Shown: positions 23,401-52,300, counted from the stretch's first letter. The stretch: DNA of 64,000 nucleotides from Lytechinus pictus (GCF_037042905.1 NC_087250.1:14448001-14512000); one strand, 5' to 3'. Program-made: numbers and translations. The notes: a model not told the origin generated them from the sequence alone.

Positions 23401-24815
23401 AAGCTAAGGCGACTTAATCCTCGAAACATCCTAAACTTGATATTTTTTCCATCCTGTGGTGTAAATTTATCAGACAGGCAAAGCCCTATACATCGTAACA
23501 AATACATAGACACAAATCGAAATACATAAATTAAATTTAAATGACTTGAAATGTCTTGCCATTATCCATGTTAGCAGTCTAAAGTAAGCATGATATTGAA
23601 GTATAATCAATTTTACCGTTTATCAATACTATTATCATCATCATCATCATCATTATCATTATTCTTGATTTTATTATTGTTATCGTTGTTGTAAATAATC
23701 ATTGTGTTAGTTATCATCGTAATGATATATATTTATAAGCATTAATAATCGTTATGATTATCATAAAAATTCATCATCATTCCAACTTCTTGTATATACT
23801 GATGCTACTCCTACTCTCTAAATGCAAAAGAGGCGCTAATCAGGGGACCGTTTCATGAAAGTTGTTAGCACTGGAAATTTGTCTTTCTCCGACAGTTACC
23901 ATAGTAACAGTCAGAGACCAGTGTCTCTCAGCCAATCAAAACCAAGGATTTCACTGAAATTGTCAGCACTGACAATTAAGTTAGTGCAGACAACTTTCAT
24001 GAAACACCCCCTGGTCCCTAATCACACTCTCCTCAGAGTGAGATGAGGGACCAGTCCTGATGTAATGAGATTTCAATCTTTCAAGAATGATTTTTTACTT
24101 TTTTGGAGTTAAAGTGTGCATCCTTTTACACTTTCACTCCAAAAAAAAGAGGGAAAATTCACTCTAGAAAGATTGAAATCTCATTCCATCGGGACTGGTC
24201 CCTCATCTCATTCTGAGAGGATTGTGATTATGGACCAGATTAGCTCCTTTGCATTTAGAGAGTACTATTCAAAATGGTAGTAGTATTACTGCTTCTGCTC
24301 TTACTACTGGAACTTCTACGACTACTACCTACTAGGCCTTTACTAGTACTACATTAAAACTACTACTACTATACTACTACTACTACTACTAATTCTACTA
24401 CTACTACTACTACTACTACTACTGCTACTTCTACTACTACTACTACTACTATACTACTACTATACTACTACTACTACTACTATTACTACTTCTACTGCTA
24501 CTACTACTTCTACTTCCATTACTACTAAAACTACTACTACTACTACTACAACTACTACTACTACTACTTCTACTACTACTATGCTATTACTACTATTACT
24601 ACTACTACTACTACTTCTACTACTACTACTATACTACTACTACTACTACTACTTCTACTTCTACTACTACTACTATACTACTACTACTACTACTACTACT
24701 ATTACTACTTCTACTTCTACTGCTACTACTACTTCTACTTCCATTACTACTAAAACTACTACTACTACTACTACTACAACTACTACTACTACTACTTCTA
24801 CTACTACTATGCTAT

Positions 24816-24853
<38 letters not shown>

Positions 24854-24997
24854 TACTACTACTACTACTACTACTTCTACTTCTACTTCTACTACTACTA
24901 CTTCTACTTCTACTAAAACTATATACTTCTACTACTTCTACTTCCACTACTTCTACTCTACTACTACTACTACTTCTACTTCTACTTCTACTACTAC

Positions 24998-25032
<35 letters not shown>

Positions 25033-25083
25033 TACTACTACTACTTCTTCTACTTCTACTGCTACTATTACTTCTACTTCCAT

Positions 25084-25125
<42 letters not shown>

Positions 25126-25213
25126 TACTACTATGCTACTACTACTACTACTACTAATACTAATACTACTTCTACTTCTACTACTACTACTACTACTGCT
25201 TCTACTTCTACTT

Positions 25214-25261
<48 letters not shown>

Positions 25262-25264
25262 ATT

Positions 25265-25295
<31 letters not shown>

Positions 25296-25324
25296 TTCCA
25301 CTACTACTACTACTTCTACTACTT

Positions 25325-25364
<40 letters not shown>

Positions 25365-25398
25365 TACTTCTACTACTACTATACTTCTACTTCTACTT

Positions 25399-25438
<40 letters not shown>

Positions 25439-25464
25439 TTCCACTACTACTACTTCTACTACTT

Positions 25465-25495
<31 letters not shown>

Positions 25496-25572
25496 TTCTA
25501 CTACTACTATTACTACTACTTCTACTTCTACTGCTACTACTACTACTACTACTTCTACTACTACTATGCTAT

Positions 25573-25613
<41 letters not shown>

Positions 25614-25671
25614 TACTACTACTACTACTACTACTTCTACTTCTACTTCTACTACTTCTACTTCTACTAAA

Positions 25672-25703
<32 letters not shown>

Positions 25704-25835
25704 TTCCACTCCTACTGCTTCTACTACTTCTACTAATACTACTACTACTACTCCTACTACTACTACTTAATTCTACTTCTACTGCTACTACTACTTCTAC
25801 TTCCATTACTACTACTACTACTTCTACTACTACTA

Positions 25836-25867
<32 letters not shown>

Positions 25868-26410
25868 ATACTACTACTACTTCTACTTCTACTACTACTA
25901 CTACTACTTCTACTTCTACTACTACTACTACTTCTACTTCTACTTCTACTTCTACTACTACTACTTCTAATTCTACTACTACTACTACTACTTCTACTTC
26001 TACTTCTTCTACTTCTACTCCTACTACTACTAACTTCTACTACTACTACTACTACTTCTACTTCTTTAACAAAATTACTATTACCTTCTTTTTATAGGGT
26101 TCTATATGAGAGTCAAAACTGGTCAGTTTCTACGTACTTCTACTACTTCTACTACTACTTCTAATTCTACGACTACTACTTCTACTCCCACTACTACTAC
26201 TTCTACTAATACTACTACTACTACTTCTTCTACTACTACTACTACTTCTACTTCTACTACTACTACTACTACTTCTACTTCCACTCCTACTGCTTCTACT
26301 ACTTCTACTAATACTACTACTACTACTCCTACTACTACTACTTAATTCTACTTCTACTGCTACTACTACTTCTACTTCCATTACTACTACTACTACTTCT
26401 ACTACTACTA

Positions 26411-26448
<38 letters not shown>

Positions 26449-26590
26449 ATACTACTACTACTACTACTTCTACTTCTACTTCTACTACTACTACTTCTAC
26501 TTCTACTAAAACTATATACTTCTACTACTTCTACTTCCACTACTTCTACTCTACTACTACTACTACTTCTACTTCTACTTCTACTACTAC

Positions 26591-26626
<36 letters not shown>

Positions 26627-26679
26627 TATACTACTACTACTTCTTCTACTTCTACTGCTACTATTACTTCTACTTCCAT

Positions 26680-26712
<33 letters not shown>

Positions 26713-26794
26713 TACTACTATGCTACTACTACTACTACTACTAATACTAATACTACTTCTACTTCTACTACTACTACTACTACTGCTTCTACTT

Positions 26795-26839
<45 letters not shown>

Positions 26840-26896
26840 ATTCTACTACTACTACTACTACTACTTCTACTTCCACTACTACTACTTCTACTACTT

Positions 26897-26939
<43 letters not shown>

Positions 26940-26973
26940 TACTTCTACTACTACTATACTTCTACTTCTACTT

Positions 26974-27013
<40 letters not shown>

Positions 27014-27039
27014 TTCCACTACTACTACTTCTACTACTT

Positions 27040-27070
<31 letters not shown>

Positions 27071-27147
27071 TTCTACTACTACTATTACTACTACTTCTAC
27101 TTCTACTGCTACTACTACTACTACTACTTCTACTACTACTATGCTAT

Positions 27148-27188
<41 letters not shown>

Positions 27189-27313
27189 TACTACTACTAC
27201 TACTACTACTTCTACTTCTACTTCTACTACTTCTACTTCTACTAAAACTACTACTACTTCTACTACTTCTACTTCCACTACTTCTACTCTACTACTACTT
27301 CTACTTCTTCTAT

Positions 27314-27346
<33 letters not shown>

Positions 27347-27581
27347 TTCTACTGCTACTACTACTTCTACTTCCATTACTACTACTGCAACTACTGCTGC
27401 TACTACTTCTACTACTACTACTATGTTACTACTACTACTTCTACTTCTACTTCTACTTCTACTACTTCTACTACTACTTCTAATTCTACGACTACTACTT
27501 CTACTCCCACTTCTACTACTTCTACTTCCACTACTTCTACTCTACTACTACTACTACTTCTACTTCTACTTCTACTACTAC

Positions 27582-27616
<35 letters not shown>

Positions 27617-30600
27617 TACTACTACTACTTCTTCTACTTCCACTCCTACTGCTTCTACTACTTCTACTAATACTACTACTACTACTCCTACTACTACTAC
27701 TTAATTCTACTTCTACTGCTACTACTACTTCTACTTCCATTACTACTACTACTACTTCTACTACTACTATACTACTACTACTACTAATACTACTACTACT
27801 AATACTACTACTACTTCTACTTCTACTACTACTACTACTACTACTTATACTTCTACTACTACTACTACTTCTACTTCTACTTCTACTACTACTACTTCTA
27901 ATTCTACTACTACTACTACTACTTCTACTTCTACTTCTTCTACTTCTACTCCTACTACTACTAACTTCTACTACTACTACTACTACTTCTACTTCTTTAA
28001 CAAAATTACTATTACCTTCTTTTTATAGGGTTCTATATGAGAGTCAAAACTGGTCAGTTTCTACGTAGAGGCGATCAAGGTATCCTAACCTCGTCGTCTT
28101 ACCCGCGACCCATCAGCGGCTATCGATGCCTGGAATTCTGGTACATGATAAATGGTAAATAAAACATTTAAGTGGTACTGATTCATATTCCAATTTGTTG
28201 AATTCGTTTCCAAATCAAGAGGAAACGTAGTCATGCAAAGGTCGGAATGGTTCATTCCTCAACATAACTTGTTTCAATGTAGTAAATGTGAAAACCACCA
28301 TCAATTTGGGGTTTTATTTAAATTTAGACCCCCCTAGTCCGGATGTTGGCCCTTCGAGATCATCGTTTTTCCCCCACTCACTGCACTCCCTCCACGGAAC
28401 GCCTTTCCTCCACACTGCACTGTACTGATCGCGCGACCCCCAGTGACCCTACCATTCACCAGGGGTGCGTTGCATCAACGTTTTCGTCCGACAAGTTGTC
28501 AGATCTGACATCTTTCCCTGACTTTGATTGGCTGAGAAGCACCGTTACTATGGTAACTGTCGGATAAGACAATACTTGTCCTTTCATGAAACACTCCCCT
28601 GATCGTATCACAAACATGTAGGCTTATTATATTAAAACTATTTCAAGACAAGAGATTCACTGCTCTCTTATAGTTAAATCCAAGATCTGACGCGTTTGTG
28701 TAACAAAAACATTGAAATTAATTCATAAACAATAGATAATCTAATCGTACGATTATTGCCCGTAACTTGCCTTTTTATTTATGTACGTTGTAGTATTGGT
28801 TGTTTTTAAGGTTTATCAATGTATTTTGACCTGCCTTTGTCACGTCATCTTGCCACGATCGACCTTCCACTCTCTATCTTTTTTCATGCTTTATATCTAA
28901 CTTCTTAAACTGTGACCCTCTTGTTATCTTCTTTGTTATCTTCTTTTTTCTAAATATCTCTCTCGATCATCATAAAATATACAAAGCAGTATGAATAGTT
29001 CTTATAATATTGTATCATAAGATCAATAGTTTACAGTATAGAGGATTTACTTTACACATTAAGCCATTGTAGCGTAAAATTAAATAAATGTATAGTAGTT
29101 CAGATGCATTTCAGTTTCTTATATGCTATATCCTGCAGGAAATAACAAAGTGTCACACAGTGTGATCACAGTGTGTTCACAGTTTGAACTATGTGAAAGC
29201 ATCATTCATACTGTTGAAATGCTCATATTCAACAGTGTGAAGACACCTCGACAGTGTGACTGCTCACAGCGTGTTCACATGGACGACTATATGAATATGT
29301 GATTCACACTGTTAAAATCATCAAATTTATCACTGTGAATGTGACTTCACATTGTGTTCCACACTGTGGCACACTTAATTTGTTGGACACTATTCTTTCC
29401 AGTTGGGTATGTGGAGAATTTTAATACCATAAACCTATTTATGTACATACCCTCTCAAGGGTGCGAGGTAAACAATACATTTTTATCTTATGCTGATTGA
29501 TTGAACAACCTTTTGAACAACTTTTAATCTTATCAGAGGATATAGGGGAGTTCACAGTGACTGCAGTGTTCTTGGATATTACCCAGTCTGATGTCTCATC
29601 CCTATCTCAAACATTTACGGTATGACCAAACTTGAATATACATTTAAACGTATTCATGGCACGCCATTAGGGAATACATACAATATATATTTCACTTCAA
29701 TTTTATTTTCAAATTTCAATTTTCACTTCAATATTTCCCAATTTGTATCATGTCTCGCCCAACTTTTCTAACATTTTCTCTAGATACCTATTTTTATATT
29801 CTGTTTCCTAATTATAATATGCAGTACTAACATTTCCTGCCACAATATTAAACTAGAATCACTTTCACTAGAAACACAATTCAACCACTATGATAATAAG
29901 GGCAAGTTGCTCCTGAATTCAATATTTAAAAATGTGGTCAAAATGTAAATAGAAAGTAATGAAAATGACTATATTCTTGTTTTTTTTACCTCAAAGATGA
30001 ATTGAAGCAAACTATATTTAGTTACCTTTTCGATTAAATGAAATAATTTGAGACAAACAGACTATATCAATGAAATATATTCTATTCTAACTCGACGGCA
30101 CGGTCAGTCACAATCTTTTACGAAACAACCAAACTTTTCTACTCCCCATGTAATTAATCAGGATGAGTTTCATTCAGTGACTTCTGTTATAAGCTACTGA
30201 AATCTTCGAATCTGATTGGCTGAGGGAAGAATTCTAAGTACAAATCCATGAAAATAACTTCGTCAATTATTTCCTTGATACAGGGTCCAACGGGAAGCTT
30301 CTGGCGGAAGGGGTCAATGGAGGTCGAGACGATTCAAGAGAATCTCTTCCGGTTCATGCTGACCGTTGAGGATACTATATCCGGGGCCTATGTTGCCATT
30401 GATGACGTTTTCGTGAAAGGCGAAAGATGTACTGGACAGAAAGGTATGAAGAACGATTAAAATGATTATCATTATATATATTATAGCTATAACTATGCAA
30501 GTCTATCTCCTTATCATTATGATAAGGAGATAGACTTGCATAGTTATTGCTAGATATATAGCTAAAAATATAACCAAATCAGAGGGGGAAAGGGTAGATA

Positions 30601-33600: not shown

Positions 33601-36600
33601 TGTGGTATGACAATCTCACTCATTCAGTCAGCCAGTACCCGGAGCCAGTAGTCCAAAGTTTCACATTTTTGTTTTCCCCTTTGAACGGAGAAAAGGAAAT
33701 TCTTTTTTGCCCCCCTTCTTTTGCCTCCTCTTTTTCCATACCACCGATAACCGTTAGACTACAAGTCTTTGAACTTGTATTCTTTTTCAAATTCTCGCTT
33801 ATATTTTAAACCAAAAGGTAAGAAAAATCTTCATCTTGCGTTTTTGCCAATACCTGCATGGTTTTGAAATCACAACCTGAACATTAATGTTTTTAGCAAC
33901 TTACAGATGGCTATCTACTAGTGTCTAAGACCCTAATTCCATAACAAGTCAAGTTCTTAAGAATATGGTTTCAGATTTTGGTGCCCCATACACCTACCCT
34001 ATCAAAATCCGAGTGCTCTCCCCCCCCCCCCCCCCCCCGAGCGGGATCAAAGGGAAACATAATGATATAGACACCTAACTAAAATTCTTTGACAGCTAAT
34101 TTATATGATCATATACGAATCTTATCATCACAGGTATATGTAACTTTCAAGAAGACCAATGTGGATATACAACCGATCCCACCAGTCTCTTTCCATGGAT
34201 CCGCTATGGCAAAGATGTCCCGACCACACCGCCTCCAACCCTTGTACTTCCTGTAACGAATCCCTTCTATTCCAACCGGACATACATGATTGTTGACAAC
34301 ACGGCAATGCCTCTAGATGGGACTGAGTACTCCAGGTTGGTCAGTCCGGTGATTCAGGAAGTTGGGTCTGACTGTCTGATGGAATTTTCCTATTACCTGA
34401 GTGGACTAGGTACGTACTGATAAATTTTCTTTTCTTCTTCTTCGACTTTTTCTTTATCTTCTTCTTCTTCTTCCCTTTCTTCTTCTTATAATAATGATAA
34501 TAATAACGGTATATTAACCCAGGGTAGCCGCTTCAGTTCCAAAAACTGTTCTCCCAGCGGGCCCTGCTATTATTACCCCGGCTTTAGCTCGGCTACCTAG
34601 GCGCACAAGCATTCTTCATCATCGTATTTTCTTCATCTTCTTAATTATTCTTCTACCACCACTACTATTCTTTTCTTCTCCTTTTTCTTCTTGTTCTTGT
34701 TCTTCTTTATCTTTATATCTTCTACAATTTTTCCCTTCTTCCTCTTCATCATCATCTTCTTTTTCCTCTTCTTCTGCTTCTTCTCCTCCTCCCCCTTCTT
34801 CTTAATAATTCAAAAAGATCCATCTTCTACTCATGCCAGTTTTTCAGGTGTAATTTTACTTGTTCTTTTTTCCCCAATAATTGTGTACGAATAAAAAGAA
34901 AACATGTCTCGTTTCTACAGATACTCTTATGGTGACCTATACAAGTGATTTTGAAGAAGAGACGACCCTCTACCGAGCAGCTAAGCCTGCTATTGATTCT
35001 TGGCAGCCAGCAGTCCTATCCGTGGGACGCATTAGTCATCCATTCCAGGTACATCGATGAATAACTTCACAGACCCATCACTTCATTCACCTCAACTCAT
35101 TTCAAAATTCAAAATAACAAGCCCCCCCCCCCAAAAAAAAAAGCTCTTTACTCCCAATTGATGGTGATTTATACCAGGCGAATCTCGGAAATTAGCTCTT
35201 TCTTGGCACTTGATTGACAACATATCGTTTAATATTCGAATGAATTGAATTTCCTTGCACATTTTTACATTACTAAAGGCCTTATATTCAGCTAAGAATA
35301 AATAAAGCGGTTTTGTAAATTAAGGAAAGGTGGCTAAGCCGAAATGATGTGGGGTGGTAGGCATATGCTTATGTAAACAAGTAGATTCAGAAGGTTCTCT
35401 TTCGGGGTTTTACACGATGATTGAAAGAGCTGATGCTTTAGGAGCTGATTTTTAAAGCAGTTTAGCGATTCGAAATTATGCAATATTTTTTTTCTTTTCT
35501 CCACCAGTTCAACTTTTTAGCGACACATTACATTGGGGGAACCCCCGGGGTTACAGCCATCAGTGATGTCACAATGCTCAGATGTGGCTTCCCCGAACCA
35601 GAGGAGACATGTATTAGCGAGTTCAGCTGCTCGAACAGGGCGTGCGTTTTCTTCAGTGACGTCTGCGATTTTACTGATGACTGCGGCGACTATTCGGATG
35701 AGATCATGTGCGGTATGTGTGTGTGTGTGTGTGTGGGGGGGGGTGATGCTGTCTGAAATCGCTTATTATCCTGTGCAGGGCCCTCTTGTAAAGCAATTCT
35801 TTACTCCATAGATTACCCTGGAGTACAATTTAGATGCCTAGGCTTAGATGCAAATGCGTTATCTTGCTCATAAACTGACCTGTAGCTCATGAAACGGGTG
35901 AGAGTAGGCCCTATAGACCTTTAACATGCATTGACGTTGTCGCGCCGGCATCTCAGAGGTTCTTCCATTGCCTTGCATGTGTTAATGATCTGCAGCTGGC
36001 GCATCTCTGGCAACTCTGGCAACTCTGGTCAGAGAAAAGAAGGTGGTCCAGCCAGACCAATCATCGTTAGATTCACGACCAGAAGGATGAGGGATACTCT
36101 ATACTAAGGCCGGACAAATTGAGGGAAACGTCAACCCGTCACCTGGGATTCTCAAGAGATGAAGGAAAGGTGTTCCTCAACGAAAATCTAGCTCCAGCTA
36201 AGAAGTCTCTCCTCAAGAAGGCAAATGACGAGAGAAAGAAGGCGGGATACAAGTTCTTATGGACAATGAATGGCACCATTCTGGTGAGGAAGAGCTCGAA
36301 TGTTCCACCGGTTGCTATTCATCGAGAAGAGGATCTGAACAAAATTAAGTAAAACTCTCTTACGCATATATGTTTAAATTACTGGTGTTTTATGTAAATA
36401 ATGATTGACTTTGATATGATTACGAACATTTCCAATGATTCCAATGATGTTATTAATGATATTGGTGCTAATAATGATGAACTAAAAATTGATTTAGATC
36501 CAAATGATGGGGCTTCGAGTGTCATATCTTCAAACTACTACACTAAGGCTTCAGCCAAAACATTTTCAAAGGTTTACCTTCTTCCTGCTTAATTGTCTAT

Positions 36601-39600
36601 TTTGCATCTAAATATCAGAAGCCTTAACAAGAATTTTCAACAATTTCGTTTATTTTTAGATAACTCGGGTGTTCCCCAAAATACAGTAATAGGTTTAACT
36701 GAGACATGGCTGTCAGATAAATATATTAATATGAATGCACTCCCAGGTTATATACTTACAAATAATCGTGTTGATAAAATTGGTGGTGGTGTTGCAATTT
36801 TTGTGCCGAGTCTATTTGAGTATGTTATTATTGAAGACATGAATTTAATAAATGAAACTGCAGAAACTTTTTTTATGGAAATTAGTGATCGTGATAACAG
36901 AAAAACTGTATTGGGAGTTGTTTATAAGCCTCCTCGCAGCAATAGTGCTGATTTTCTAGACACTTTAAATAATTTACTACATTATCATTCTGTTCAAAAC
37001 AAAAGATGTATCATAATGGGAAACTTTAACTATGACCTGTTAGCGAGTGATACTAATATTTTTGCAAATGACTTTTTAGAGACATTCCTTTCTGCCTCCT
37101 TTTTGCCACTTATTTCTAGACCCACTAGAATCACTAATACTTCCGCAACTCTGATTGACAATTTTTTCTCCAATATAAGTTCAGAATTTAAAGCTGGTAT
37201 AATTATCTCAGACATGTCTGATCATTTCCCGATTTTCATGTATTGTTCTAATCAATATCAGCCAAACAAACTTCCCGATTATGTTTCTAAGAGGCGTGTG
37301 TATAGTGATATAAATATATCTCGTTTGAAACAGAGTTTAGAAGAAGAATCTTGGGATGAAAAATTTAGTACAGAATGTGTTGACGAGTCCTACGAAACAT
37401 TTATTGATACCTTCATTAGTCATGTTAACGAAAATATTCCTTTTGCAAAGCCCAAGTCCAAAAACTATAAAAGATCACCCAGACTACCTTGGATAACGAA
37501 TTCAATTCTTCGTTCGATAAATAGAAGAAAAAAAAATCGATTTTACTATAAATATATATCAAGATTAACTGAGAATACTAGGAGCCAATATACTAATTAT
37601 AAGAATATACTAACAGGGGTCATCCGTACTGCTAAAAAGGCATATTACCATGATCAATTTAATCAATGCAAGAATGATCTTTAAAAAACATGGAAATTGA
37701 TCAATTCTACCATCAATAATGGACCAAAGTTTTCAAAGATAACTAAGCTTATGCATAGTGATTCTATTATTGAAGATAAAGTTCAGATGGCAAATATTTT
37801 CAACAATTACTTTTCACAAGTTGGATTTAAGCTCTCTAGAAGTATACCAACAAACTCCCATTCATTTCATCAATATCTGGGGGATAGAAATCAAAGTTCT
37901 ATGTTTTTCTCTCCTACGAACGCACAGGAGATAATTAAAATTATATCTAGCCTAAAATCAAATAAAATGCAGGATTTGATAACATTGATAACAACCTTTT
38001 ACAGAAATTTATTAATTATATAATTGACCCTCTTATTTATATATTCAATTTGTCATTATCATCGGGAAATATTCCAAAATCAATGAAAATTTCTAAGATA
38101 ATACCAGTCTTCAAAAAAGGTGATAGTTCTTTAGCAAGTAACTACAGACCTATTTCATTGCTTACAAACTTATCTAAAATTCTTGAAAATTGGTTCACAT
38201 ACGAACCATATGGTTTTTTTTAAAGCACAACATCCTATCCGATACTCAATTTGGTTTCCGGGAAAAGAGTAGCACTTCCCACGCAATACTTTCAGTAGTT
38301 CAAACAGTTGCCAAAGCTTATGACAAGTCTTCGAATACGATTGGTTTGTTTTTAGATTTTTCAAAAGCATTCGATACAGTTGATCATAACATTCTCCTTT
38401 ATAAACTTTCTCATTATGGAATTAGAGGGGAATCACTAAAGTGGTTCAAGAATTATCTAACCGGGCGTTCACAGTTCGTTTCACTTGATTGTGATATTTC
38501 TGAACGTAAACCTGTCCTTTGTGGAGTTCCACAGGGCAGCATTCTTGGCCCACTTTTGTTCATTACTTATATAAATGATATTGATATGTCATCTAGATTG
38601 CTTCAATTTATACTTTTCGCTGATGACTCTAATATATTTCTGTCGCACCCCGACCCAGAGCAATTGACGCAAATATTCAATGACGAACTAAAACATGTTT
38701 CTAATTGGATAACAGCTAACAAAACTCTCTCTTAACCTAGAAAAAACTCGCTACATGCTATTTAGCAACAAGATTATGACTGTACCAAAAGATGTAATTT
38801 TAAATGATACTGTCATTCAAAGAGTGCGATCTACTAAATTTTTGGGACTGATCATTGACGAAAAACTTTGTTGGAAAGCACATATTGATAATATTTGTAA
38901 AATCATTGCTCGCAACATTGGTGTCATTAGAAAATTACGTTACTTCTTACCTCATTATATTTTGTTATCATTGTATTCAACGTTAATTTTACCTTACTTG
39001 AATTACGGAGTTGTTGCGTGGGATAACGCAGCGAATTATCACATTAATAGACTTTTTATTTTACAAAAAAGAGTGATTCGTATTATTAGTCATGCAGAAT
39101 TCAGGGCACATACAAATATTCTGTTTTTGAGAAATAAAGTCTTGAAGGTTAAAGATTTATATTCTTTTCAACTCGGACAGTTAATGTACAAATTTATCAA
39201 TAAACAATTACCGTTACTTTTTAATGATATGTTTGTAAAAAATGATACAATTCATAAGCACTTCACTCGCCAGGCGAGTTCCTTTCATTTACCTCTCAAT
39301 AGAACATCGTTTGCACAGAAGACATTTGTTTTTACTGGTCCAAAATTATGGAATTCTATTTCAAAGGATATTATACAATGTAATTCAATACAACATTTCA
39401 AAGGAAAAAAATATCTTCTGAATTCATATTAGATTATCGTTTTTTCCCAAAGTAATGTAATTCAGAACTTAATATGTAATGTGTTTATTAATTTCTCTTT
39501 GTATATATGTTTAATCGTTTCATGATTCCTGTATACAGTGTATACTGAATCATTTATTTCTATTATTATCTTTTTTTTTTGTTCAATATATATATATATA

Positions 39601-40344
39601 TATTAACAAAAATACTGTAAAAATTAGCTACAGCTGCATGAAAAACGTAAATGCGATCATCAAATCACAGTATCACACAACGAAAAAGTCATCAGAAAAT
39701 CAAAAGAAGAAGAGAACCCTCCGGAAAAAACATGCAACTGCCGAGTGAAAGAAGACTGCCCTCTACGGGGAAACTGCCTGGCCAAGTCGATAATATACAA
39801 AGCATCTGCCACGCACGGCCAAAGAGATACAATCACCAAAGTGTATTTTGGCCCAGCAGGGGGAACTTTTAAAGAAAGATTCAGAAACCACACAAAATCT
39901 TTCCGAAACGAGAAATACCAAAACGAAACAGAACTATCTAAATACATATGGGATCTACAAAAGAAAGGGGAACGATACAATTTAAAATGGGCAATAATGA
40001 AAAAATCCAACTTGGCAATGCGGGGAAGTGGAATCTGCAACCTATGCTTAGACGAAAAACTCATTATCGCAACTCACAAGAAAAACTCACTCAACCGAAG
40101 GTCCGAACTAATCAGTACATGCCGTCACAAAAGAAGGATCAAAGAACCGCCGGACCGTGAAATGCATCCATTGCCCCAACCGAGGGCCCCCACCAAATCC
40201 AACTAGCTTAAGTGTCCTGATGAGCCGCCTGTGATCGAGGCGCGAAACCATTGGTAGACCAGAGGTGAGGAAAATTTCTACAACGCTCTGCTTCAGTTGA
40301 AACATCGAGCACTTTCCCTGAACTTGATACATCCCAATTTAATT

Positions 40345-40379
<35 letters not shown>

Positions 40380-43300
40380 TATGTCTTTATTTTATCTTAT
40401 TTTCTTATTCATAAAGTTTACTTATAAAAGGGGGCCTTCACCCTACAAGTTCTGCTTTTTAGTTGGTCTCCTTTCCTTTCGATTTCATGGTTTTATTGTA
40501 TTATAAAAAAATGATTGAAATGTTATATTTTGTAAATATGTATATTGAACTATCATTGTAAATGTAAAAAGATTGATAGAGAAAATGAATGAATTTAATT
40601 GAATTGAACTCTTTTGGCGCGTATATTCATGTCCTCTGAGGGAGGGCGCTATGAGATTATGATACTCAACTTATTTCCACATTTTTTACAGTGTCATTAT
40701 ATCCCACAGATATCGCACTCCTGACACTCCTAGCCCGTTCCTTGATATATCTGACTACCTTGTCAGTCGGCAGGTAGAGCAGTAACGATGATTATTAACT
40801 CCCGCATTTAGACTTTTAATATAGGACCAAATTTGAATAGGAACGATGAACTAATATAGTCCTATTCCATGACATTTGCTCCGGCGACAATTGCTTCGAT
40901 GGAAAATATGCACATTACTCCAAACATAAAACCTAACTTCCAGAACTAAAATAATAAACCCTGATCTTTAGAGTATTCTGAACTAAAAACTCGTTTACAA
41001 TCCTATCCTATGCCATCTATTAGAGTACCGAAGTGTGACGTCAGTTGCGGGCTGGTTCTAAACAGAGTCGCAGCTGACGATCGTCTGTAGACATTTTTAT
41101 GACTTTGGCTTGTCTGAAAAAAAGGTTGCAAGACAGTGATCAAATTCCGAAAGCAGCCATTTTCTCCTAGGAGAAACACGCTTTCATTCGGCGGGTTCAT
41201 TTGTATAGAACCAGGCCGCCATGACACCATGACAGCTGACGTCATCGCTTCGGTACTATATACCCGAGAAAATGTCTCATGGGCATAATGTCGTGTCACA
41301 AAATCAACATCTGTGTTTCATAATTCCTAGATCCTGATAGACACACAGCACGATGTAACTTCGAGACCAATCTATGTTCGTTCTCACACATTCCGTGGGA
41401 CTATCCCTGGGTTCGTACGGCCAGTGTCCATGTTCCCGACAAACAGTACGCACCGACCAGAGATCACACAACCAATGGAGCCAGCGGATACTACTTGCTG
41501 GCCGAAGCCTTCGGGAGAGACAAAGGGGACGTCGCAAGGATTGCGTCGCCGGTTTTCCTGGAAACAGGAATAGCGTCGACGTGCACCGTAAGTTCTACAA
41601 CCAAATCTCAAAATCTGCGCTGTCGAATGAACATTTTGACAAAGACGTTAAGATCTGCATGATCCAAGAAAATGATGAAATAGTCAACATATAAGGAGCT
41701 CAATATCCAATCTAAAAAAATTAAAGTGCTAAAATCAGCATTTTTCATCTTTAAGAGCTCGGATATACCCGCGTGTATATCGACTGCTTTTGGGGTGCTC
41801 AGTGTACATGACGTGCTGTTTTGCCACTTCAAGTGTTGCAAATCAGCACCTCAAAGGCATTCACTTTATGAGATCTTAAGGATGCCGGTTTAACACTTTG
41901 TCTTAAGAGTGTTTGAAAGAATCTTTACCAACATTATGTTTTGGTTTCTCTGACGATTATTATCTTGCTCATGCTTCGATACGTATCGTGATAATATTTC
42001 AGCAAGTATGGGTTTGTAAAATGTTCAAAAAATATTGTCTTCACGCAGATACGGCTCTACATTTTTGGCAATGGTCCTGACGTTGGAACCTTAAACATAT
42101 ACACCAGGACGACCAATGGGGGCGCTCTTAGTCTTGTCCGTAGTTATTCCAACTTTGCAAGCGACAGTTTTATCTATATTGATGAGAGTTTGATCGTTCT
42201 TGACAATTTCCAGGTAAGTTCGGCTTTTAAGCTAATGCAATTTCTCCCATTGCTTTCGTGACTTCCACAATTCATTTCAACACTGAGTTTTCATATGATT
42301 ATAGTCTTTCATAAATATCACAATGTGATTGTGTCACCGCATTGGATTTCTTTCAATTGAAACTTAAGAAATAGTTTTGTATTGTTCACTGTATGTAACA
42401 TCTTGTATTTTTACTTTTGGTGTCAGGAGTGGGATGTACCTTCTTGTAATTTAGTACCTTACATTCTAATATATTCCCTATTTCGTTTTGTAGCTTTCCC
42501 GGGTTTCTTTTACAACAAGCGTGAAACCTACTCAACTCATTGCATCTATATATCATAAAGATATATTAAATCTAATTTCTAAATGGTTTAGACTTTAGTT
42601 CACTCAATAATTAGAAAACACGGCAACTGTTTTACGTAGCGCCTGTTGACATCTAAATAATCAATTAAAAATAATTCCAATTCTGCGACCAAAAATATAT
42701 CCATGAGATGGGAAGAAAAAGACAAATCGGGTAGATGAAGTCAAACAAAGTGACGTTGTGTTCATAATCTTTGTCATAATATTCGAGAAATAAATTCTAG
42801 CATTCCATCGAAGTGACAACGAGATAACTGTGTTAGTCTGGAGTTAAACAAAGTAAAACACTAACGGGATCCCTCAGGGTTCAATTCTAGGGCCAGTGTT
42901 ATTCCTAATATACATCAACGACCTTCAAAATATTAGTACTAATACATCAGTGATACAATTTGCTGATGACACTAGTTTCTTCCTGTCAGGCAATAATATT
43001 GAATAGATAAAAAATAACTTACAAAATGAGTTGAGAATCTATGAGCAATGGTTTTTATGTAACAAATTACAAATCAATGCTAAAAAAACTTCATATGTTA
43101 TATTCCACACGAAAGGCAGATCCATCAACTGTGATATGCAATTAATGATAAATAACATCGAAATAAAACGAGAAAATACTGTGAAATTTCTTGGCATATG
43201 GATAGACTCACAATTAACTTGGAAAGATCATGTCGGGTATATTTCAGGGAAAATATCAAGATTTACTGGAGCATTATATACAGAGTAAGGGACCTCCTCC

Positions 43301-46300: not shown

Positions 46301-49300
46301 AATGTTTCATATATACGAAGACCTTTACATGGGGCAATCACTTTTTGAGTCATGTAAAAGAAGCATATGTCACTACATAAAACAGTGATAACTCAAGTGC
46401 TAGGAAATATATTTGGTTTATATTGACTTTAAACGGGATGTTTTAGTACAACAGGATTATAAATCTCGTTAAAAAGACAATGCGAGCACCAGGAACAATG
46501 AAGACGTAGGCCCTGGGCAAATTATGTTTCATAAAGTTATGATAAAAATGTTTCTTATGTAATGTAACATAACATAATTATAATATAATATAACATTGTC
46601 ATGAATAATATTTTCTTCTTTCCCACTACGTTTCTCTTCCTTTCTCCCTCTTTTCTCCTTTTCCCCTTTTCCCCGTTTTTTTTTACGCCACTTTATGTCC
46701 ATATGGCAAATACCCCTCCAATGTTATTATTTTTTTTTACCCCATGATGGTTTAATGGTTTTATTAGAGATTACATTCAAAATGTTATGACATTCCATCT
46801 TAATCCCTTCCCAAAGACCCCAACATTGATGAATTGGAAGAAACGGGGGTTTCTCTTCAATGTTATAACAAGGACATAAGTATTTCGTTTGGAAATGGTG
46901 AACTGGCTCTTTATTTGCATTTTATGATTCAATAATATTGTTTTATTTTGTTAAGCGGTATTTTAAGAAGAATTTTCACCAATAAAACAATTATCTCTTG
47001 TGATTTTTTTCATTTCTTTCGTAAAAAGTGGGAGGGGGATGTTTGTACAGGCCATCCCCCCCCCCTCCTCGAAAAGTTGGGGGGGTATATCCCCCCATCC
47101 CCCCCCCCCCCCGGGATTTACGCCAGTGATAAGACGGAATATCTATCATTGATTTCATTAGGAGGCTAGAGCTACAACGCACTCTTTGGGGTCCAAAAAA
47201 GTACTCCAATTGGCATGGGCGAAAATCTGTCCCGAAAGGTAGGGGGGACAACAGGGGCGGATCCAGCCTTCGCCAATGGGGGGGGGGGCGATTTTTTTTT
47301 CAGCCATATGTTAATCCCCGATCGGCCGCTCGAAGATGATTTTTGTTTGTTTCATTGAAGGAGTAGTCCTCATGGCCACTTTTTAGCTTTATTCTTATAA
47401 TTCAACATACATATATAATATCATAATCCTTATCTATATAAAAAAAAAATTGGGGGGGGGGGAATTTTATGTATTTTTTCCTAAAATTTGAACATTCTGG
47501 GCAATGTTTGTTATCCTGAAAAAGATGTATATGCAACTAAATAATTACTTCGAACGCGAAGTGCGAGCCGATGTTAACTGATGGAAAAGGTTTGATTTGA
47601 TTTGATTTGATTTATTTATTTCCGTTTCACAATTGTACATAATATGATAAACATAACATAACAAGGTCGAAAATACTACAAGACAAAATATAATATATAT
47701 AACATAATCATAGATTTAAGGAACACAATTCAGTAAATAAAGATATCTCAAATGACATTTGTATTTAAAAGTAAAACGGAGGGACTTGCCGAAAAAAAGC
47801 AAAGCTTGTACAAGAGACAAGCCCCTATCTTAGTTACATTACAAAATTACAACAAATAAATATTGGGTCTTAATAATAATTTTGTTTAAAAATAAATATA
47901 AACAATTTTTGTGCACTTGACAAAAACGTAACTGATGGATCGTGTGAGAAAAAATTACGTTTTACAATATTATAAGAGAGGAGGAGGTGAGGGGGAGACA
48001 GGAGGGACAGAGGAGTGCAGTACACTAAGTAGAAAGAAAGAAGAAGGCGGGCAGCAGGAGCAGGTACTTTGGCTAATTGCAATTTTAAGAAGAAAATAAT
48101 TAAACGAATAATATACATGACTATGTATATAATATGAGCGCATATAATACGCATATACACAATAGTCGAGTATGATTAAATTAGTTATTCAGCTTGACCT
48201 GTTTGCGACGAGTATTGCAGAATTAACATTTTTTTCAGTTTGCGTTTAAAAATATTTACATTGGGGGATTCTTTGAAATCTTGAGGCAGAGAGTTCCAGT
48301 AGGCAGGCCCAGAGAAGACAAATGAATTCTTTGCAAATAAAGTTCTTTTTAAAGGGAGATGATAATATTGTCGTTGCCTTGTTGGGTAGCAGTGTACGGA
48401 TGTATTTTTACGGAACATATTAGAGAAAATGGCGGGAAGGTCGTCCTTGCTTAATTTAAACATAAATTGACTAAGTTCGAAAAGATACATGTCACTTACT
48501 TTAAGAATGTTATTTTCAAAAAATAAGATATCAGTATGTGATCTAAAGTGTGTTTGAAAAATTATTCTTAGAGCTTTTTTCTGAAGAAGTAATATTCTAT
48601 TTAGTTGTGTTTGTATTGCACATCCCCAGGCAATAATTCCATAATTAATATATGGTAGAATAAGGGTGTAATATAATGTTAACAAAGTGCGGGAAGGGAG
48701 AAAATGTTTGAGTTTATTAATAATTCCAATGTTTCTAGAAATTGTTTTACATATACTATCGATATGAGGCTTCCAGGATAATTTGTCGTCAATAAGGACA
48801 CCCAAGAATCTGGTAGTGCAAACATTATTAAGAACGAAATTATCAAAGAAAATACTGTCAGGTAGAGTATTGATTTTATTGCTGAAAAGCATGTAGTTAG
48901 TCTTCTGGTGATTAAGCGAAAGTTTGTTGGCCTTGATCCAATCTGTAACATTTGTTAGTTCAAAATTTACGATTCTAACGAGTTGGTTAATATCATCATG
49001 GGAAAAGAAAATATTGGAGTCGTCAGCAAAAAGTATAAATGAAAGTAAATTTGATGTATTTTTAATATCATTGATGTAAGTAATAAAAAGAAGTGGGCCT
49101 AATAGGCTACCCTGTGGGACACCGCAAGTAATTGGAAGAGTAGTCGAATTGCTATTATTTACTGATACAAATTGGGTCCTATCAGTGAGGTAACTCCTGA
49201 ACCACTCCAAGGCCTTCCCTCTAACTCCATAATGACACAGTTTATGAAGGAGAATTTCATGATTTATAGTGTCGAAGGCCTTGGAGAAGTCCAGGAAAAT

Positions 49301-52300
49301 ACCGACAGTATGACAACTATTATCGATGGAAGTGGTGACTTTATTAATAAATGACAGAATAGCATGGGAAGTACTATGGTTTTTACGGAATCCAAATTGG
49401 AAGTTTGAAAAAATGTTGTGTAATTTGAAAAAAATCACTTGTTCTAATATGGACAAGTTTTTCTAGAATTTTAGATAGTGAAGTTAGTAAGGATATTGGA
49501 CGATAGTTGGAAACGAGTTGGCTATCACCTTTTTTTAACAGTGGGATGACTTTGGAGATTTTCATTTTATTAGGGACCCGTCCAGTGCTAAGAGAGATAT
49601 TAAATATATGTACCAATGGATCAACGATGGCTGTAATGATTTTTTTTAGAAGAAAGTTGGGTATACTGATTTTTTTTAGAAGAAAGTTGGGTATACAGGT
49701 TAGCAATGAATAAGTAACATATTTCAACAATCAAATAATGCGAGCCCAAAGAATGGAAATTCAAAGCACTTTTTGTAACTGAAACATATAATAGGTATAT
49801 AACTAAACAATTGATGCGAAGCGCGAGCGGAAAATTTTGAGATTTAGACCTAAGAACGAGAAACTCTATTCATGTTTTGTAAATCATGAAAAGGATGAGT
49901 AATTGGGGGCCTTCCTTACACCCGGTCCTTACATTAATAATGCGAGTGCAAACTGCAAAGTGCAGCCATAAAATGTCTTTTTTAAATTTGAACTGATCGA
50001 AAAGGTACTTGTTAAAGACTGCTTGCACTTAACCATGAAGACGTTACATATTTCAACAATCATATAATGCTAGCGCGAATCGCGAGCTGAAAATTGTTGA
50101 CATTTCTACAGAAAGAATCGAAAATTTTAATCAATTTTCCTAATCATGAACAGGGTAGCTATATAACTAACCAATTGATGCAAGCGAAGCGCGAGCAGAA
50201 AAATTCGAGATTTAGACCCAAAACGGGACACTCGATCTATTCAAGTTTTGTAAATCATGAAAAGGATAAGGAATAGGGGATCTTTCTACATTAATAATGC
50301 GAGCACAAAGCGCGAGCAGAAAATTTTTGATATTGTGATCTGAAACTGGATAATGATTTAAATAGAGAACAAGTTGAGTATCTGAATAAACATGCGCGTG
50401 TTTCAGATTTAGACCTAGAATCTAGGCATTTTATACACCTCTTTTATCATGAAAAATCTGAAAAAGAGTCAATTTCAGCTATATATTTCAAGCACTTTGT
50501 AGGAAAATTGTGAGGTGGATATTGATCGCACTTAATAAAGAGCTGATATTTTTCATTGTTATTTGAGTTTTGACAGTATAGGACCGGGACATCCTTGGGA
50601 CATGTCATATGAAAATGATGACTATCTTCCTATTCCTCTTGCTAAGCGCGAGATGAAACAAAAGGGACAATTTAATCGTTAAATTATTAATATCTTAATT
50701 ATTAATGCCTAATGAGGGCGAGAAATCTGATGATATTATGGCCTGAAAACTGGACATTTCAAGCAATTTTGTCATTATGAATAGAATGCATCAGTCAAAA
50801 TATCTTTTAACCATTAATGCGAGCGCAAATCGCGAGCCAAAATCTTTGATAAACTGTCATGAAAATCAATATTGAGACATACATAAATCGCCAATTAAAA
50901 TGCGAGCGAGTAGCCAGCGCTATCTGATACGTTTTGACAATCAGACTTGATTTTTTTCAAACTAAATGGAATACACAAAAATAATAGGTACTTAATAAAT
51001 CGAAATTTGCGAGCGCCCAGTGCGAGCAAAAATGTCAATATTCAGACCATGAAGCTGTCACTTTTACAGAGCACTTTTAAAAAATCAGTTTGTAAATCAC
51101 ACAAAATAATGAAAGTTCGATTTCCGAGGTGAAATGTGTAATGTATATTGACTTCCAAACTTGATATTTAAGCTCCATATTCACCTGACAGGCAATGCGA
51201 GCGCGAAGCGCGAGCGAAAATTTCATATAGTGACATGAAAAAATCTTTTTATTTTCCATGTCTTCCCCTCATCTTATTTTAGTCACTCTGGGAAATTTGA
51301 CAAGCCCCCCCCCCCCCCCCAAAAAAAAAAGAGAAGGTTTTCACCCAAAATGTAAGGTCATTTAGTCCAAAATACATGTATTATTTCGAATGTGAATGAT
51401 GCATTTTTCTCCATTATAAAAGACCAAAAATAGTAGGGGGGACATTTGATATTGTGTCCCCCCCCCCCCTACTATTTTTGGTAGGGGGGACACGTCCCCC
51501 CTGGATTTCCGCCATTGGTCAAGCGCGCGCAATGTTACACAATTTTTTCAATTGCTTCAATGCCGTGCGGGCGGCTGCGCACAGCGAGCTCGTCCAGCTT
51601 ATTTGAATATCGATGGTTCATAAATGCGAACAGGGGTCTTACGAATACTAGCGATTGATCCGATCAACCACAACTATGGAAAGCCAGCAACATCTACATC
51701 TTAAATGCATGTTTGGGCAAAATATTTCTAGATATGCAGTACATTTATGCATTCATCGATTCATTGCAAATTCTCTTTGTTTGAAAGGGAAATTGTGCAA
51801 ATTTCCTGTAGAAATTATATGGCATTGATGGATTTCCATACAGTTGAGGTTGATCAGATCAATCACAACTATGGACGGCCAGCAATGTCAACATCTTTTA
51901 TGCATGTTTGTTCAAAATATTTTCTATGATGTACATTCATGCATTCATTGTTTTCTGGAAAATTCACTGTGCTTCTTTTTGTTTACAAAGGACATTGTGC
52001 ATATTTCCTGTAGAAAAAAGTATGACACTGATGGATTTCCTTAGAGTTACGATTGATTGGATCAATTGTAACTCTTTGTAAGACGAGGCCCTGGTCTATA
52101 TGTAAGGATGATATCAGCAGTAGATATGAAAGCACTACGATGAAAATTGTAGAGCCGGGCAGCATACAGCCAATAAAGGAGCTTTCGTAAAAATTGATGG
52201 TCGGACCATCTGCGCATGCGTTAAACAAGATGTTTCGTCGACCCTCCTGCTTGTTTTTACGACTGTCTACGGGTGAATCGAAGTTGTTCCAAAACTATAA

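What the first reader, a model, noticed from the sequence alone, without database searches (positions are those of the whole stretch)
40214..40259. Hammerhead ribozyme in sense orientation within an intron of the host gene
Seen: all core nucleotides (CUGAUGA, GAAA, GUA cleavage triplet) and three helices lie just after the GIY-YIG stop codon. Stem III is very short and near-palindromic (ACCAUUGGU). Established: Penelope-like elements carry minimal type I hammerheads that tend to cleave as dimers. Inference: being on the gene's strand in intron 16, it is transcribed in the pre-mRNA and could cut it. A lone copy may be weakly active unless complemented in trans by Penelope transcripts.
Basis: partly seen in the sequence, partly recalled or inferred. 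Interest (0 to 1): 0.7.

Follow-up and report, generated by a model that had tools for sequence, protein, structure and literature searches.

The report
Retrotransposon hammerhead motif inside an intron
The hammerhead ribozyme motif is real, but it is the ordinary, already described ribozyme carried at the tail of a truncated Penelope-like retrotransposon, and nothing shows that this lone copy cuts the host gene's RNA.

Summary
The motif is at 40214-40259 (+) as described, 8 nt after the TAG that ends a GIY-YIG open frame: CUGAUGA, a 6-bp helix II with one bulge, GAAA, the 9-nt near-palindrome ACCAUUGGU and GUA, with the cut predicted after A40256.

It belongs to a 5'-truncated Penelope-like element (39604-40346) flanked on both sides by (TA)n. 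At least 55 copies of its 3' half lie in the 811-Mb genome. Protein motifs, (TA)n targeting and the hammerhead architecture match the published Hydra clade of Penelope-like elements. Five of the 6 listed Hydra hammerheads have the same 4+1+4 stem III. Related families in this genome keep the motif with different, complementary helices.

The element lies in sense in an intron of a MAM/LDL-receptor-A gene; the intron number cannot be checked.

Nothing supports cleavage of the pre-mRNA:
- The monomer fold is about 9 kcal/mol worse than the best fold.
- No second hammerhead lies in the window.
- The flanking exons have zero depth in four RNA runs.
- The few reads on the element come from other copies.

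Rfam models miss this motif, and also all sister hammerheads tested. Verdict: a new member of a known kind, of low interest.

The parts
39586..39603 (.). (AT)9 run at the 5' junction of the element; half of the target microsatellite
   Evidence: read directly
39604..40346 (+). 5'-truncated Penelope-like element fragment (Hydra clade): end of the ORF, hammerhead, 3' region and tail
   Evidence: blastn against 29 own-genome loci puts the homology at 39603-40375, including the TA run; other copies continue upstream into an RT with YRDDGL
39628..40206 (+). open frame remnant ending in TAG (40204-06): CxCX5C linker from about 39733, GIY-YIG-type endonuclease, then CxxC and CxH motifs
   Evidence: motif list of the Hydra clade; published Hydra EN alignment rows; no Pfam match
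40214..40259 (+). minimal type I hammerhead motif; predicted scissile bond between A40256 and G40257
   Evidence: conserved in copies and in sister families
40247..40255 (+). stem III, the 9-nt near-palindrome ACCAUUGGU (4+1+4); not a stable hairpin on its own, self-duplex -8.9 kcal/mol
   Evidence: same layout in 5 of 6 published Hydra hammerheads
40210..40210 (+). A in this copy where 30 of the 31 copies that cover the site (the window's own counted) have C; by my pairing it removes a distal helix I pair (C40210-G40262)
   Evidence: for the counts; the pairing is my inference
40260..40280 (+). 21 nt between the hammerhead and the 'short' 3' end used by 17 of 33 copies, which are followed directly by (TA)n
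40281..40346 (+). 66-nt 'tail' present in 'long' copies (16 of 33, this one included); also found inverted upstream of truncated copies
   Evidence: tail concept
40347..40375 (.). (TA)n at the 3' junction; the other half of the target microsatellite
35505..35711 (+). host exon (LDL-receptor class A), homologue residues 633-701, 98.6% identity
41330..41590 (+). next host exon (MAM domain), homologue residues 702-788, 96.6% identity
36071..39432 (+). separate non-LTR (LINE) element with frames broken: Baculo_FP_2nd ORF, APE endonuclease, RVT_1. It lies in the same intron and is not part of the Penelope-like repeat

Best explanation
This is the 3'-terminal hammerhead of a dead, 5'-truncated copy of a Hydra-clade Penelope-like retrotransposon. 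The copy inserted into a (TA)n microsatellite inside an intron of a MAM/LDL-receptor-A gene, in the gene's orientation. In the element family the motif is a minimal type I hammerhead. Its stem III is too short to hold the active fold in one molecule, so two hammerheads, or the element's own protein, are needed to form the active fold. Its likely role is to process multi-unit element transcripts. Shown here: the motif itself, its family context, the compensatory changes between families, the intronic sense position, and that new insertions copy RNA not cut at the hammerhead. Inferred: catalysis, action as a dimer, and the role in transcript processing. In this locus the motif is a passenger. 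It is alone, carries a private change in the outer part of helix I, and most likely cuts the host pre-mRNA rarely or not at all.
For: Family and repetition:
- The 231-nt stretch around the motif has 45 matches in the 811-Mb genome.
- A 27-mer of the motif's 3' half occurs 55 times at up to 2 mismatches, against 0 for the reversed control.
- Of 33 motif-bearing copies in 30 loci, 28 keep both core boxes.

Element identity:
- Other copies continue upstream into an RT with YRDDGL.
- A sister family has a 736-aa open frame with ADKT, CxCX5C, CNLC and CRH motifs. These are the features listed for the Hydra clade, together with (TA)n targets and a length under 3 kb.
- (TA)n flanks both ends of the window's copy.

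Sister hammerheads at the same place, with different but complementary helices:
- Helix I: GUC/GAC, GUCUGC/GCAGAC, UUUAGUUG/CAACUAAA, AGUCG/CGACU.
- Stem III: ACCAUUGGU, ACCGCCGGU, ACAGUCUGU.
- On the model-fitted alignment of 15 distinct rows, 95.1% of cells pair against 28-37% when partners are slid. Three pairs change on both sides, a count that 14 of 500 shuffles reach.

Published Hydra hammerheads (File S2 of PMC8557442):
- 5 of 6 have a 4+1+4 stem III, one of them 'acca a tggt'.
- 3 of 6 have U...U flanking stem II, as sister family B does.

Dimer reading:
- The third and fifth letters of the 7 nt between A15.1 and U16.1 are A/U, G/C and G/C in the three stem III types. They cannot pair within a one-nucleotide hairpin loop, but they do pair in a duplex of two copies.
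- The stem III hairpin has 0 kcal/mol and the self-duplex -8.9.

Inertness here:
- The hammerhead fold of the monomer is -8.1 to -8.5 kcal/mol against an optimum of -17.0. The optimal folds are not hammerheads.
- No other hammerhead lies in the 64-kb window on either strand.
- In the literature, a single minimal motif showed no detectable cleavage and dimers showed little. The anole element's hammerhead cleaved only with protein.

Uncut template:
- Every copy that reaches a 3' end carries both sides of the scissile bond.
- 0 of 45 matches start or end at the cut site.
- This agrees with in vitro work in which hammerhead mutants did not affect insertion.
Against: - No cleavage assay or end mapping exists for this family, so catalysis is inferred from the motif alone.
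- Contiguous helix I is only 3 bp.
- No Rfam hammerhead model reaches its gathering score.
- Within the young family the changes in helix II are decay, not compensation. Covariation therefore rests on a few related families and on an alignment fitted to the structure.
- Several other Penelope-like loci fetched from this genome showed no descriptor hit (L043, L046, L048-L051, L053-L056). The motif is therefore not shown to be universal here.
- Family B has U/U where G10.1-C11.1 is expected.
- Inertness in vivo is not shown. The RNA runs did not detect the host gene at all, so they say nothing about cleavage. Element RNA and protein could act in trans.
Confidence: 0.8

Rival explanations
1. One reading: the sense-strand intronic hammerhead is transcribed within the host pre-mRNA and cleaves it, alone or after pairing in trans with element transcripts. 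This would lower the output of the MAM/LDLa gene.
For: The sense orientation inside an intron is supported. The core and helices II and III are intact in this copy. A few element-family reads exist in 2 of 4 RNA runs, so trans partners may exist at a low level. A 2026 preprint abstract reports that hammerhead-bearing retrozymes are excluded from introns and exons in vertebrates, which would fit a cost of genic copies (abstract only).
Against: The monomer fold is about 9 kcal/mol above the optimum. There is no cis partner in 64 kb. This copy has lost a distal helix I pair that 30 of 31 copies covering the site keep. Published minimal motifs are inactive as monomers and weak as dimers. No reads lie on the flanking exons and no end pile-up was reported. 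A cut inside an intron that is being removed would often have no consequence (my inference).
Confidence: 0.07
2. The motif serves mainly as a folded RNA handle for the element's RT-EN protein near the start sites of reverse transcription. Cleavage would be incidental or vestigial.
For: The two alternative 3' ends of copies lie 24 and 90 nt downstream of the scissile bond. All insertions derive from uncut RNA. In the anole element, the protein was needed for cleavage and catalytic mutants did not change insertion. The authors of PMC8557442 note that Naiad elements thrive without hammerheads.
Against: The catalytic boxes CUGANGA and GAAA and the UH site are the invariant parts across families whose helices have diverged. 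That pattern is what selection for catalysis predicts. In the anole work, the RNA needed for insertion lay in the first 172 nt of the ORF and not in the hammerhead.
Confidence: 0.1
3. A chance resemblance: a GC-rich hairpin beside short core-like words, with no ribozyme meaning.
For: Loose patterns occur by chance (37 of 200 and 56 of 400 simulated windows). Rfam gives no significant match. The fold z-scores are unremarkable, -0.77 to -1.12.
Against: The strict descriptor hit 0 of 400 simulated windows. The same motif sits at the same place in diverged sister families with compensatory helices. Its architecture matches the published Hydra-clade hammerheads nearly column for column.
Confidence: 0.03

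Closest known systems
Canonical hammerheads of Hydra-clade Penelope-like elements (Craig, Yushenova, Rodriguez, Arkhipova 2021, PMC8557442; section 11 and File S2 seen)
   Same: Sense strand near the 3' end of a short single-ORF element with a C-terminal GIY-YIG. (TA)n targets. CUGANGA...GAAA core. Stem III written as 4 bp plus a 1-nt loop in 5 of 6 entries; the octopus entry 'acca a tggt' differs from this motif by the central letter only. The protein shares the CxCX5C, CxxC, CxH and DKT motifs.
   Different: No sea urchin family is listed in that supplement: 0 occurrences of 'urchin', 'Strongylocentrotus' or 'Lytechinus'. Here helix II has an internal bulged C and contiguous helix I is only 3 bp. 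The tail is 66 nt, against the 30-40 bp quoted for Penelope-like elements.
Minimal hammerheads of metazoan Penelope-like elements (Cervera and De la Pena 2014, PMC4209133; main text parts 1-2 read)
   Same: Type I topology, long helix II with a bulged nucleotide, short helix I, palindromic positions around stem III, a G10.1-C11.1 pair. Mostly solitary copies from truncated elements. Expected to act as dimers, with low activity in vitro.
   Different: Their typical minimal motif has almost no stem III. This one has a 9-nt near-palindrome, closer to the Drosophila virilis variant they describe. Echinoderms are not mentioned in the main text.
Hammerhead and 'tail' of the green anole Poseidon element PAc (Frangieh et al. 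2024, PMC11167929; main text read)
   Same: Two alternative internal start sites of reverse transcription define a tail. Insertions come from RNA not cut at the hammerhead. AT-rich targets.
   Different: In PAc the hammerhead overlaps the ORF start and the start sites lie inside the next ORF. Here the hammerhead follows the stop codon by 8 nt and the start sites lie 24 and 90 nt after the cut site. Different clade.
Rfam Hammerhead_1 and Hammerhead_3 (RF00163 by recall, RF00008)
   Same: Same catalytic core words.
   Different: No match at gathering score. The best match is Hammerhead_3 at 10.9 bits in a wrong register. The same models also miss the sister hammerheads in 5 loci.
[quoted passage not shown]
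   Same: Sense-strand hammerhead within an intron of a protein-coding gene.
   Different: By recall, those are single-copy, deeply conserved, stable monomeric ribozymes. This one is a recent repeat copy (88-100% identical to its relatives) with an unstable stem III.

Membership tests
Hammerhead ribozyme, type I | Core strand 1, C3-U-G-A-N-G-A9 | tested here: met
   CUGAUGA at 40217-23
Hammerhead ribozyme, type I | Core strand 2, G12-A-A plus A15.1 paired with U16.1, and a cleavage site N-U-H | tested here: met
   GAAA at 40244-47; A40247 pairs with U40255; GUA at 40254-56
Hammerhead ribozyme, type I | Helix II closed by G10.1-C11.1 | tested here: met
   G40224-C40243, then 5 further pairs with C40226 bulged
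Hammerhead ribozyme, type I | Helix I open-ended (type I), formed by the two flanks | tested here: met
   GUC 40214-16 with GAC 40257-59, only 3 contiguous pairs. Sister families have 5, 6 and 8 pairs
Hammerhead ribozyme, type I | Stable helix III in the monomer | tested here: not met
   The 9-mer alone does not fold (0 kcal/mol). The whole hammerhead fold is -8.1 against an MFE of -17.0
Hammerhead ribozyme, type I | Match to the curated Rfam covariance model at gathering score | tested here: not met
   0 matches; 10.9 bits against 48.5. The control shows the models also miss the sister motifs
Hammerhead ribozyme, type I | Self-cleavage at the predicted bond | not testable with these tools
   The RNA runs gave too few reads, and none from this locus
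Hammerhead of Penelope-like elements | Lies in the non-coding end of an RT plus GIY-YIG element, on the sense strand | tested here: met
   8 nt after the stop of the EN frame; the RT lies upstream in longer copies
Hammerhead of Penelope-like elements | Palindromic stem III region that allows a dimer | tested here: met
   ACCAUUGGU matches its own reverse complement at 8 of 9 letters; self-duplex -8.9 kcal/mol
Hammerhead of Penelope-like elements | Kept across diverged element families, with compensatory changes | tested here: met
   However, 10 of 17 further loci gave no descriptor hit
Hydra clade of Penelope-like elements | CxCX5C linker before the EN; CxxC and CxH around the conserved E and N; no CCHH | tested here: met
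   [13 protein letters not shown] and CRH in P0001, compared with the text and alignment rows. The absence of CCHH was judged by eye only
Hydra clade of Penelope-like elements | DKG changed to DKT; RWK motif near the N-terminus | tested here: inconclusive
   Sister family B has ADKT, and MRWR in place of RWK. The window's own copy lacks this region
Hydra clade of Penelope-like elements | Short (under 3 kb) single-ORF element inserting into (TA)n | tested here: met
   (TA)n on both flanks and after most copies. The tandem unit is 2491 bp in L044. Homologues of 700-750 aa lie on contigs of 2.3-2.7 kb
Hydra clade of Penelope-like elements | Placement inside the clade on an RT tree | not tested
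   No tree was built; the assignment rests on motifs and on visible similarity to the published sequences

The most novel reading that the evidence does not exclude
Sense-strand intronic copies of this element act as conditional cut sites. When the element family is expressed, its RNA would supply the second half of the dimeric stem III, or its RT-EN protein would act as a folding chaperone. Dormant hammerheads such as this one would then cleave host pre-mRNAs, tying bursts of transposon activity to knock-down of the genes that harbour sense copies.
Probability: 0.04. Interest if true: 0.6.

Novelty: new member of a known kind. Interest (0 to 1): 0.15.

Why it matters
There is little new biology here. 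The result extends the catalogued Hydra clade of Penelope-like elements, with its characteristic 3' hammerhead, to a sea-urchin-like genome, and gives one clean example of a solitary copy lying in sense in an intron.

Three by-products have some value:
- All retrotransposed copies span the scissile bond and end at two fixed sites 24 and 90 nt downstream. This is genomic support for the in vitro picture of internal initiation on uncut RNA.
- The 4+1+4 stem III co-varies between families at positions that can pair only between two molecules. This is comparative support for action as a dimer.
- Rfam's hammerhead models miss this whole class, so Rfam-based annotation will under-count such ribozymes.

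Tried and rejected
- Rfam at gathering score and in E-value mode on 1 kb and on 86 nt gave no usable hammerhead match. One search showed the models also miss the sister hammerheads in L044, L057, L058, L017 and L027, so this negative carries no weight.
- MAFFT alignment of six hammerhead types (A1) put families B, E and F out of register and was not used.
- A covariance model built from family A only (R1) recovered families A, B and D among 34 sources but not family C. Its alignment of family B's helix I is poor.
I used a 27-mer instead.
- The look-up of sequencing runs listed no RNA holder for the stretch searched.
- Laying four RNA runs gave zero depth on the host exons and only a handful of reads from other copies, so it is no test of cleavage. 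The apparent 'joints' 36009-36018 to 40632 carry differing letters in between and come from a dispersed repeat, not from splicing.
- Pfam gives nothing for the element's proteins, even at E<=1.
- Looking for copies that begin or end exactly at the cut site, which would indicate a processed template, found 0 of 45.
- A conserved hairpin in the tail is predicted for family B, but not for the window's own tail, where the z-score is +0.40.
- Earlier notes of this scan: two look-ups returned nothing.
- Lunse, Weinberg and Breaker (2016/17) on dimeric cleavage is not held. I know it only through the review passage and reference list.

Full report
**1.

Read, the + strand has these features:

| Feature | Position |
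|---|---|
| TAG stop codon | 40204-06 |
| Helix I, 5' strand GUC | 40214-16 |
| CUGAUGA | 40217-23 |
| Helix II (G24-C43, C25-G42, C26 bulged, G27-C41, C28-G40, C29-G39, U30-A38; 7-nt loop) | 40224-43 |
| GAAA | 40244-47 |
| ACCAUUGGU | 40247-55 |
| GUA | 40254-56 |
| Helix I, 3' strand GAC | 40257-59 |

The frame 39628-40206 ends in that TAG. It reads ...CNCRVKEDC...IIYKA...YFG...RFRNH...CNLC...CRH. This is a GIY-YIG-type nuclease by its motifs, although Pfam gives no match even at E<=1.

**2. Is it more than chance?**

- A core-only pattern is not unusual: 3 matches against 1.09 expected, and 14 of 100 shuffles reach 3.
- A relaxed helix-aware descriptor finds only this site in the window. 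It also finds a site in 37 of 200 simulated windows and in 56 of 400.
- A strict descriptor requires helix II of at least 5 bp and a 9-nt near-palindromic stem III. It hit 0 of 400 simulated windows. I defined it after seeing the motif, so this number is indicative only.
- Rfam does not help. There are no matches at gathering score in the window and none for a hammerhead in a 1-kb E-value search. The 86-nt search gave only a mis-registered Hammerhead_3 match of 10.9 bits against a cut-off of 48.5.
- As a control I ran five loci that hold sister hammerheads. None of them was reported. The Rfam negative therefore says nothing here.

**3. What the motif belongs to**

- The upstream frames 36593-39432 are a separate LINE with APE and RVT_1 domains. 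They are not part of the repeat.
- blastn of the window against 29 own-genome loci bounds the repeat at 39603-40375.
- The repeat is flanked by (AT)9 at 39586-39603 and by (TA)n at 40347-40375. The element therefore sits in a TA microsatellite.
- The stretch around the motif has 45 matches in the 811-Mb assembly.
- A 27-mer from the motif occurs 55 times at up to 2 mismatches, 36 of them exact, against 0 for the reversed control.
- Other copies run further upstream into an RT with YRDDGL.
- That RT piece finds 123 places in the genome, at identities from about 36 to 100%. These include open frames of 700-810 aa and a tandem array on contig 15.

**4. Which Penelope-like clade**

A sister family at about 65% identity (family B) has a 736-aa open frame with ADKT, CxCX5C, CNLC and CRH motifs. 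Craig et al. 2021 define the Hydra clade by these features:
- a CxCX5C linker;
- CxxC and CxH around the conserved E and N;
- DKG changed to DKT;
- length under 3 kb;
- insertion into (TA)n;
- readily detected canonical hammerheads.

Their supplementary alignment rows and protein sequences are visibly similar to the proteins found here. The tandem unit in L044 is 2491 bp. Homologues of family B are 700-750 aa proteins on contigs of 2.3-2.7 kb. I built no tree, so the clade assignment rests on motifs.

**5. The hammerhead is a family feature with compensatory change**

Sister families carry the motif after the ORF:

| Family | Helix I | Core | Helix II | Stem III region | Distance after the stop |
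|---|---|---|---|---|---|
| A (this one) | GUC/GAC | CUGAUGA | GCCGCC/GGCGC | ACCAUUGGU | 8 nt |
| B | GUCUGC/GCAGAC | CUGAAGA | CGCC/GGCG, flanked by U and U | ACCGCCGGU | a few nt |
| C | UUUAGUUG/CAACUAAA | CUGAUGA | CCC/GGG | ACAGUCUGU | 193 nt |
| D | AGUCG/CGACU | CUGAUGA | not tabulated | ACAGUCUGU | not determined |

- On the model-fitted alignment of 27 matches (15 distinct rows), 95.1% of cells pair, against 28-37% with slid partners. Three of 12 pairs change on both sides, and 14 of 500 shuffles reach that count.
- This alignment leans towards the structure and handles family B's helix I badly.
- Within family A the changes are simple decay: 5 of 33 copies have lost a core box.
- Negative result: of the 17 loci fetched, the descriptor found hammerheads in L044, L045, L047, L052 and L057. 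A regular expression found family B's in L058. L059 holds only truncated pieces. The other ten loci gave nothing.

**6. Match to published motifs**

File S2 of Craig et al. lists six novel Hydra hammerheads.
- Five have a stem III written as 4 bp plus a single-nucleotide loop: actc-g-gagt, acca-a-tggt, actc-c-gagt (twice) and acac-a-gtgt.
- Three have 'ctgaNgat ... tgaa', the same U...U flank as family B here.
- The window's acca-u-uggu differs from the octopus entry only at the centre.
- Sea urchins do not occur in that supplement or in the main text of Cervera and De la Pena.
- A search for hammerhead, sea urchin, retrotransposon and ribozyme gave 3 papers; by title and the start of the abstract, none is on this subject.

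**7. How it most likely works**

A hairpin with a one-nucleotide loop cannot form.
- The 9-mer alone has no stable fold (0 kcal/mol), but its self-duplex is -8.9 kcal/mol.
- The letters on either side of the centre are A/U, G/C and G/C in the three stem III types. This complementarity has a use only between two molecules. With three related types, the evidence is modest.
- The monomeric hammerhead fold scores -8.1 to -8.5 kcal/mol against an optimum of -17.0. The optimal folds are not hammerheads.

This agrees with the literature. Minimal hammerheads of Penelope-like elements are thought to act as dimers. They were inactive as single motifs and weak as dimers in vitro. The anole element's hammerhead cut only in the presence of its protein.

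**8. A genomic observation on the template RNA**

- Copies end at one of two places. Seventeen of 33 end at about 40280 and are followed directly by (TA)n. Sixteen of 33, this one included, end at about 40346.
- These ends lie 24 and 90 nt after the scissile bond.
- The 66-nt piece between them also occurs inverted upstream of truncated copies. This behaviour matches the 'tail' described for Penelope-like elements.
- Every copy therefore spans the cut site, and 0 of 45 matches begin or end at it.
- The RNA that was copied had not been cleaved. This agrees with Frangieh et al., where hammerhead mutants did not affect insertion and no RNA-seq ends lay at the cut site.
- What the ribozyme does for the element remains open. 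Processing of multi-unit transcripts is the leading published idea.

**9. The host gene**

- Pfam on 132 frames of at least 80 aa shows MAM and LDL-receptor-A exons on the + strand from about 14.2 to 55.3 kb.
- A named homologue, 'MAM and LDL-receptor class A domain-containing protein 1-like' from a sea urchin, maps collinearly at 63-99% identity (most exons 81-99%).
- Its residues 633-701 map to 35505-35711 and its residues 702-788 to 41330-41590.
- The LINE and the Penelope-like fragment therefore share one intron, both in sense.
- By this mapping it is the 12th intron. More MAM exons lie upstream, so 'intron 16' is plausible but cannot be checked.

**10. Does it cut the pre-mRNA?**

Nothing says so.
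- No second hammerhead lies in the window.
- This copy alone has A at 40210, where 30 of 31 copies covering the site have C. By my pairing, this removes a distal helix I pair.
- In four RNA runs, sampled at 6-25%, both flanking exons have zero depth.
- The element bins have a depth of at most about 3, in two runs only.
- All 4 reads over 40210 show C, so they come from other copies.
- No pile-up of read ends was listed.
- These data cannot exclude rare cleavage.

**11. Verdict**

The motif is a genuine hammerhead of a kind already described: the 3' hammerhead of a Hydra-clade Penelope-like element. It is seen here in a truncated intronic copy in a sea-urchin-like genome. It is a new member of a known kind, the idea that it cleaves the host pre-mRNA is unsupported, and its interest is low.

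Noticed in passing
window 36071-39432 (+): A non-LTR element with broken frames lies just upstream in the same intron, in sense: an ORF with a Baculo_FP_2nd domain, an APE endonuclease and RVT_1. An (AT)9 run lies between it and the Penelope-like fragment.
   Followed up: partly
window 4235-6811 (+) and 48188-49462 (-): Two more reverse-transcriptase frames lie in the window: an 859-aa open frame with endonuclease plus RVT_1, and a 425-aa RVT_1 frame on the other strand.
   Followed up: no
window 24347-28065: About 3.7 kb with long open frames in several overlapping frames on both strands and only faint Pfam hits. It lies between host exons at 22332 and 28028 and looks like a low-complexity or tandem repeat block.
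   Followed up: no
L059 5620-5790 (minus strand; G000 C7 about 46278119-46278254): Two micro-insertions lie 109 bp apart. Each is an inverted tail joined to a body truncated inside helix II, so the CUGAUGA box is missing, and each ends in (TA)n. They suggest template switching at the tail during insertion.
   Followed up: partly
L017 2068-2101 and L027 2829-2867: Two further minimal hammerheads of another layout turned up by chance in flanks of family A loci. They have a bulged A after the core and 4-nt palindromes AGCU and AAUU in place of stem III. The genome therefore holds several hammerhead families.
   Followed up: no
G000 C15 about 1.88-2.02 Mb (samples L048, L049, L054): A long tandem array of Penelope-like RT frames (535-539 aa) with a period of about 2.8-3.2 kb. 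My descriptor found no hammerhead in the three sampled stretches.
   Followed up: partly
L057 803-874 and 3798-3869 (+): Two near-identical tRNA genes (46.5 and 60.9 bits) flank an inverted pair of family D copies. Each lies within a few hundred bases of a hammerhead.
   Followed up: no
window 35951-36167 and 40508-40941: Short dispersed repeats attract many partial RNA reads in all four runs. They produce false 'joints' 36009-36018 to 40632 with variable letters in between. The repeat at 40508-40941 lies between the element and the next exon.
   Followed up: no
L039 2499-2525; window 40286-40312: The tail of family B is predicted to form a hairpin, GCUCUGCU...AGCA..GAGC. Similar words (GCTCTGCTT...GAGCAC) stand in the window's tail and in the published 3' end of a sea cucumber Hydra element. 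The window's own tail is not predicted to fold that way.
   Followed up: partly
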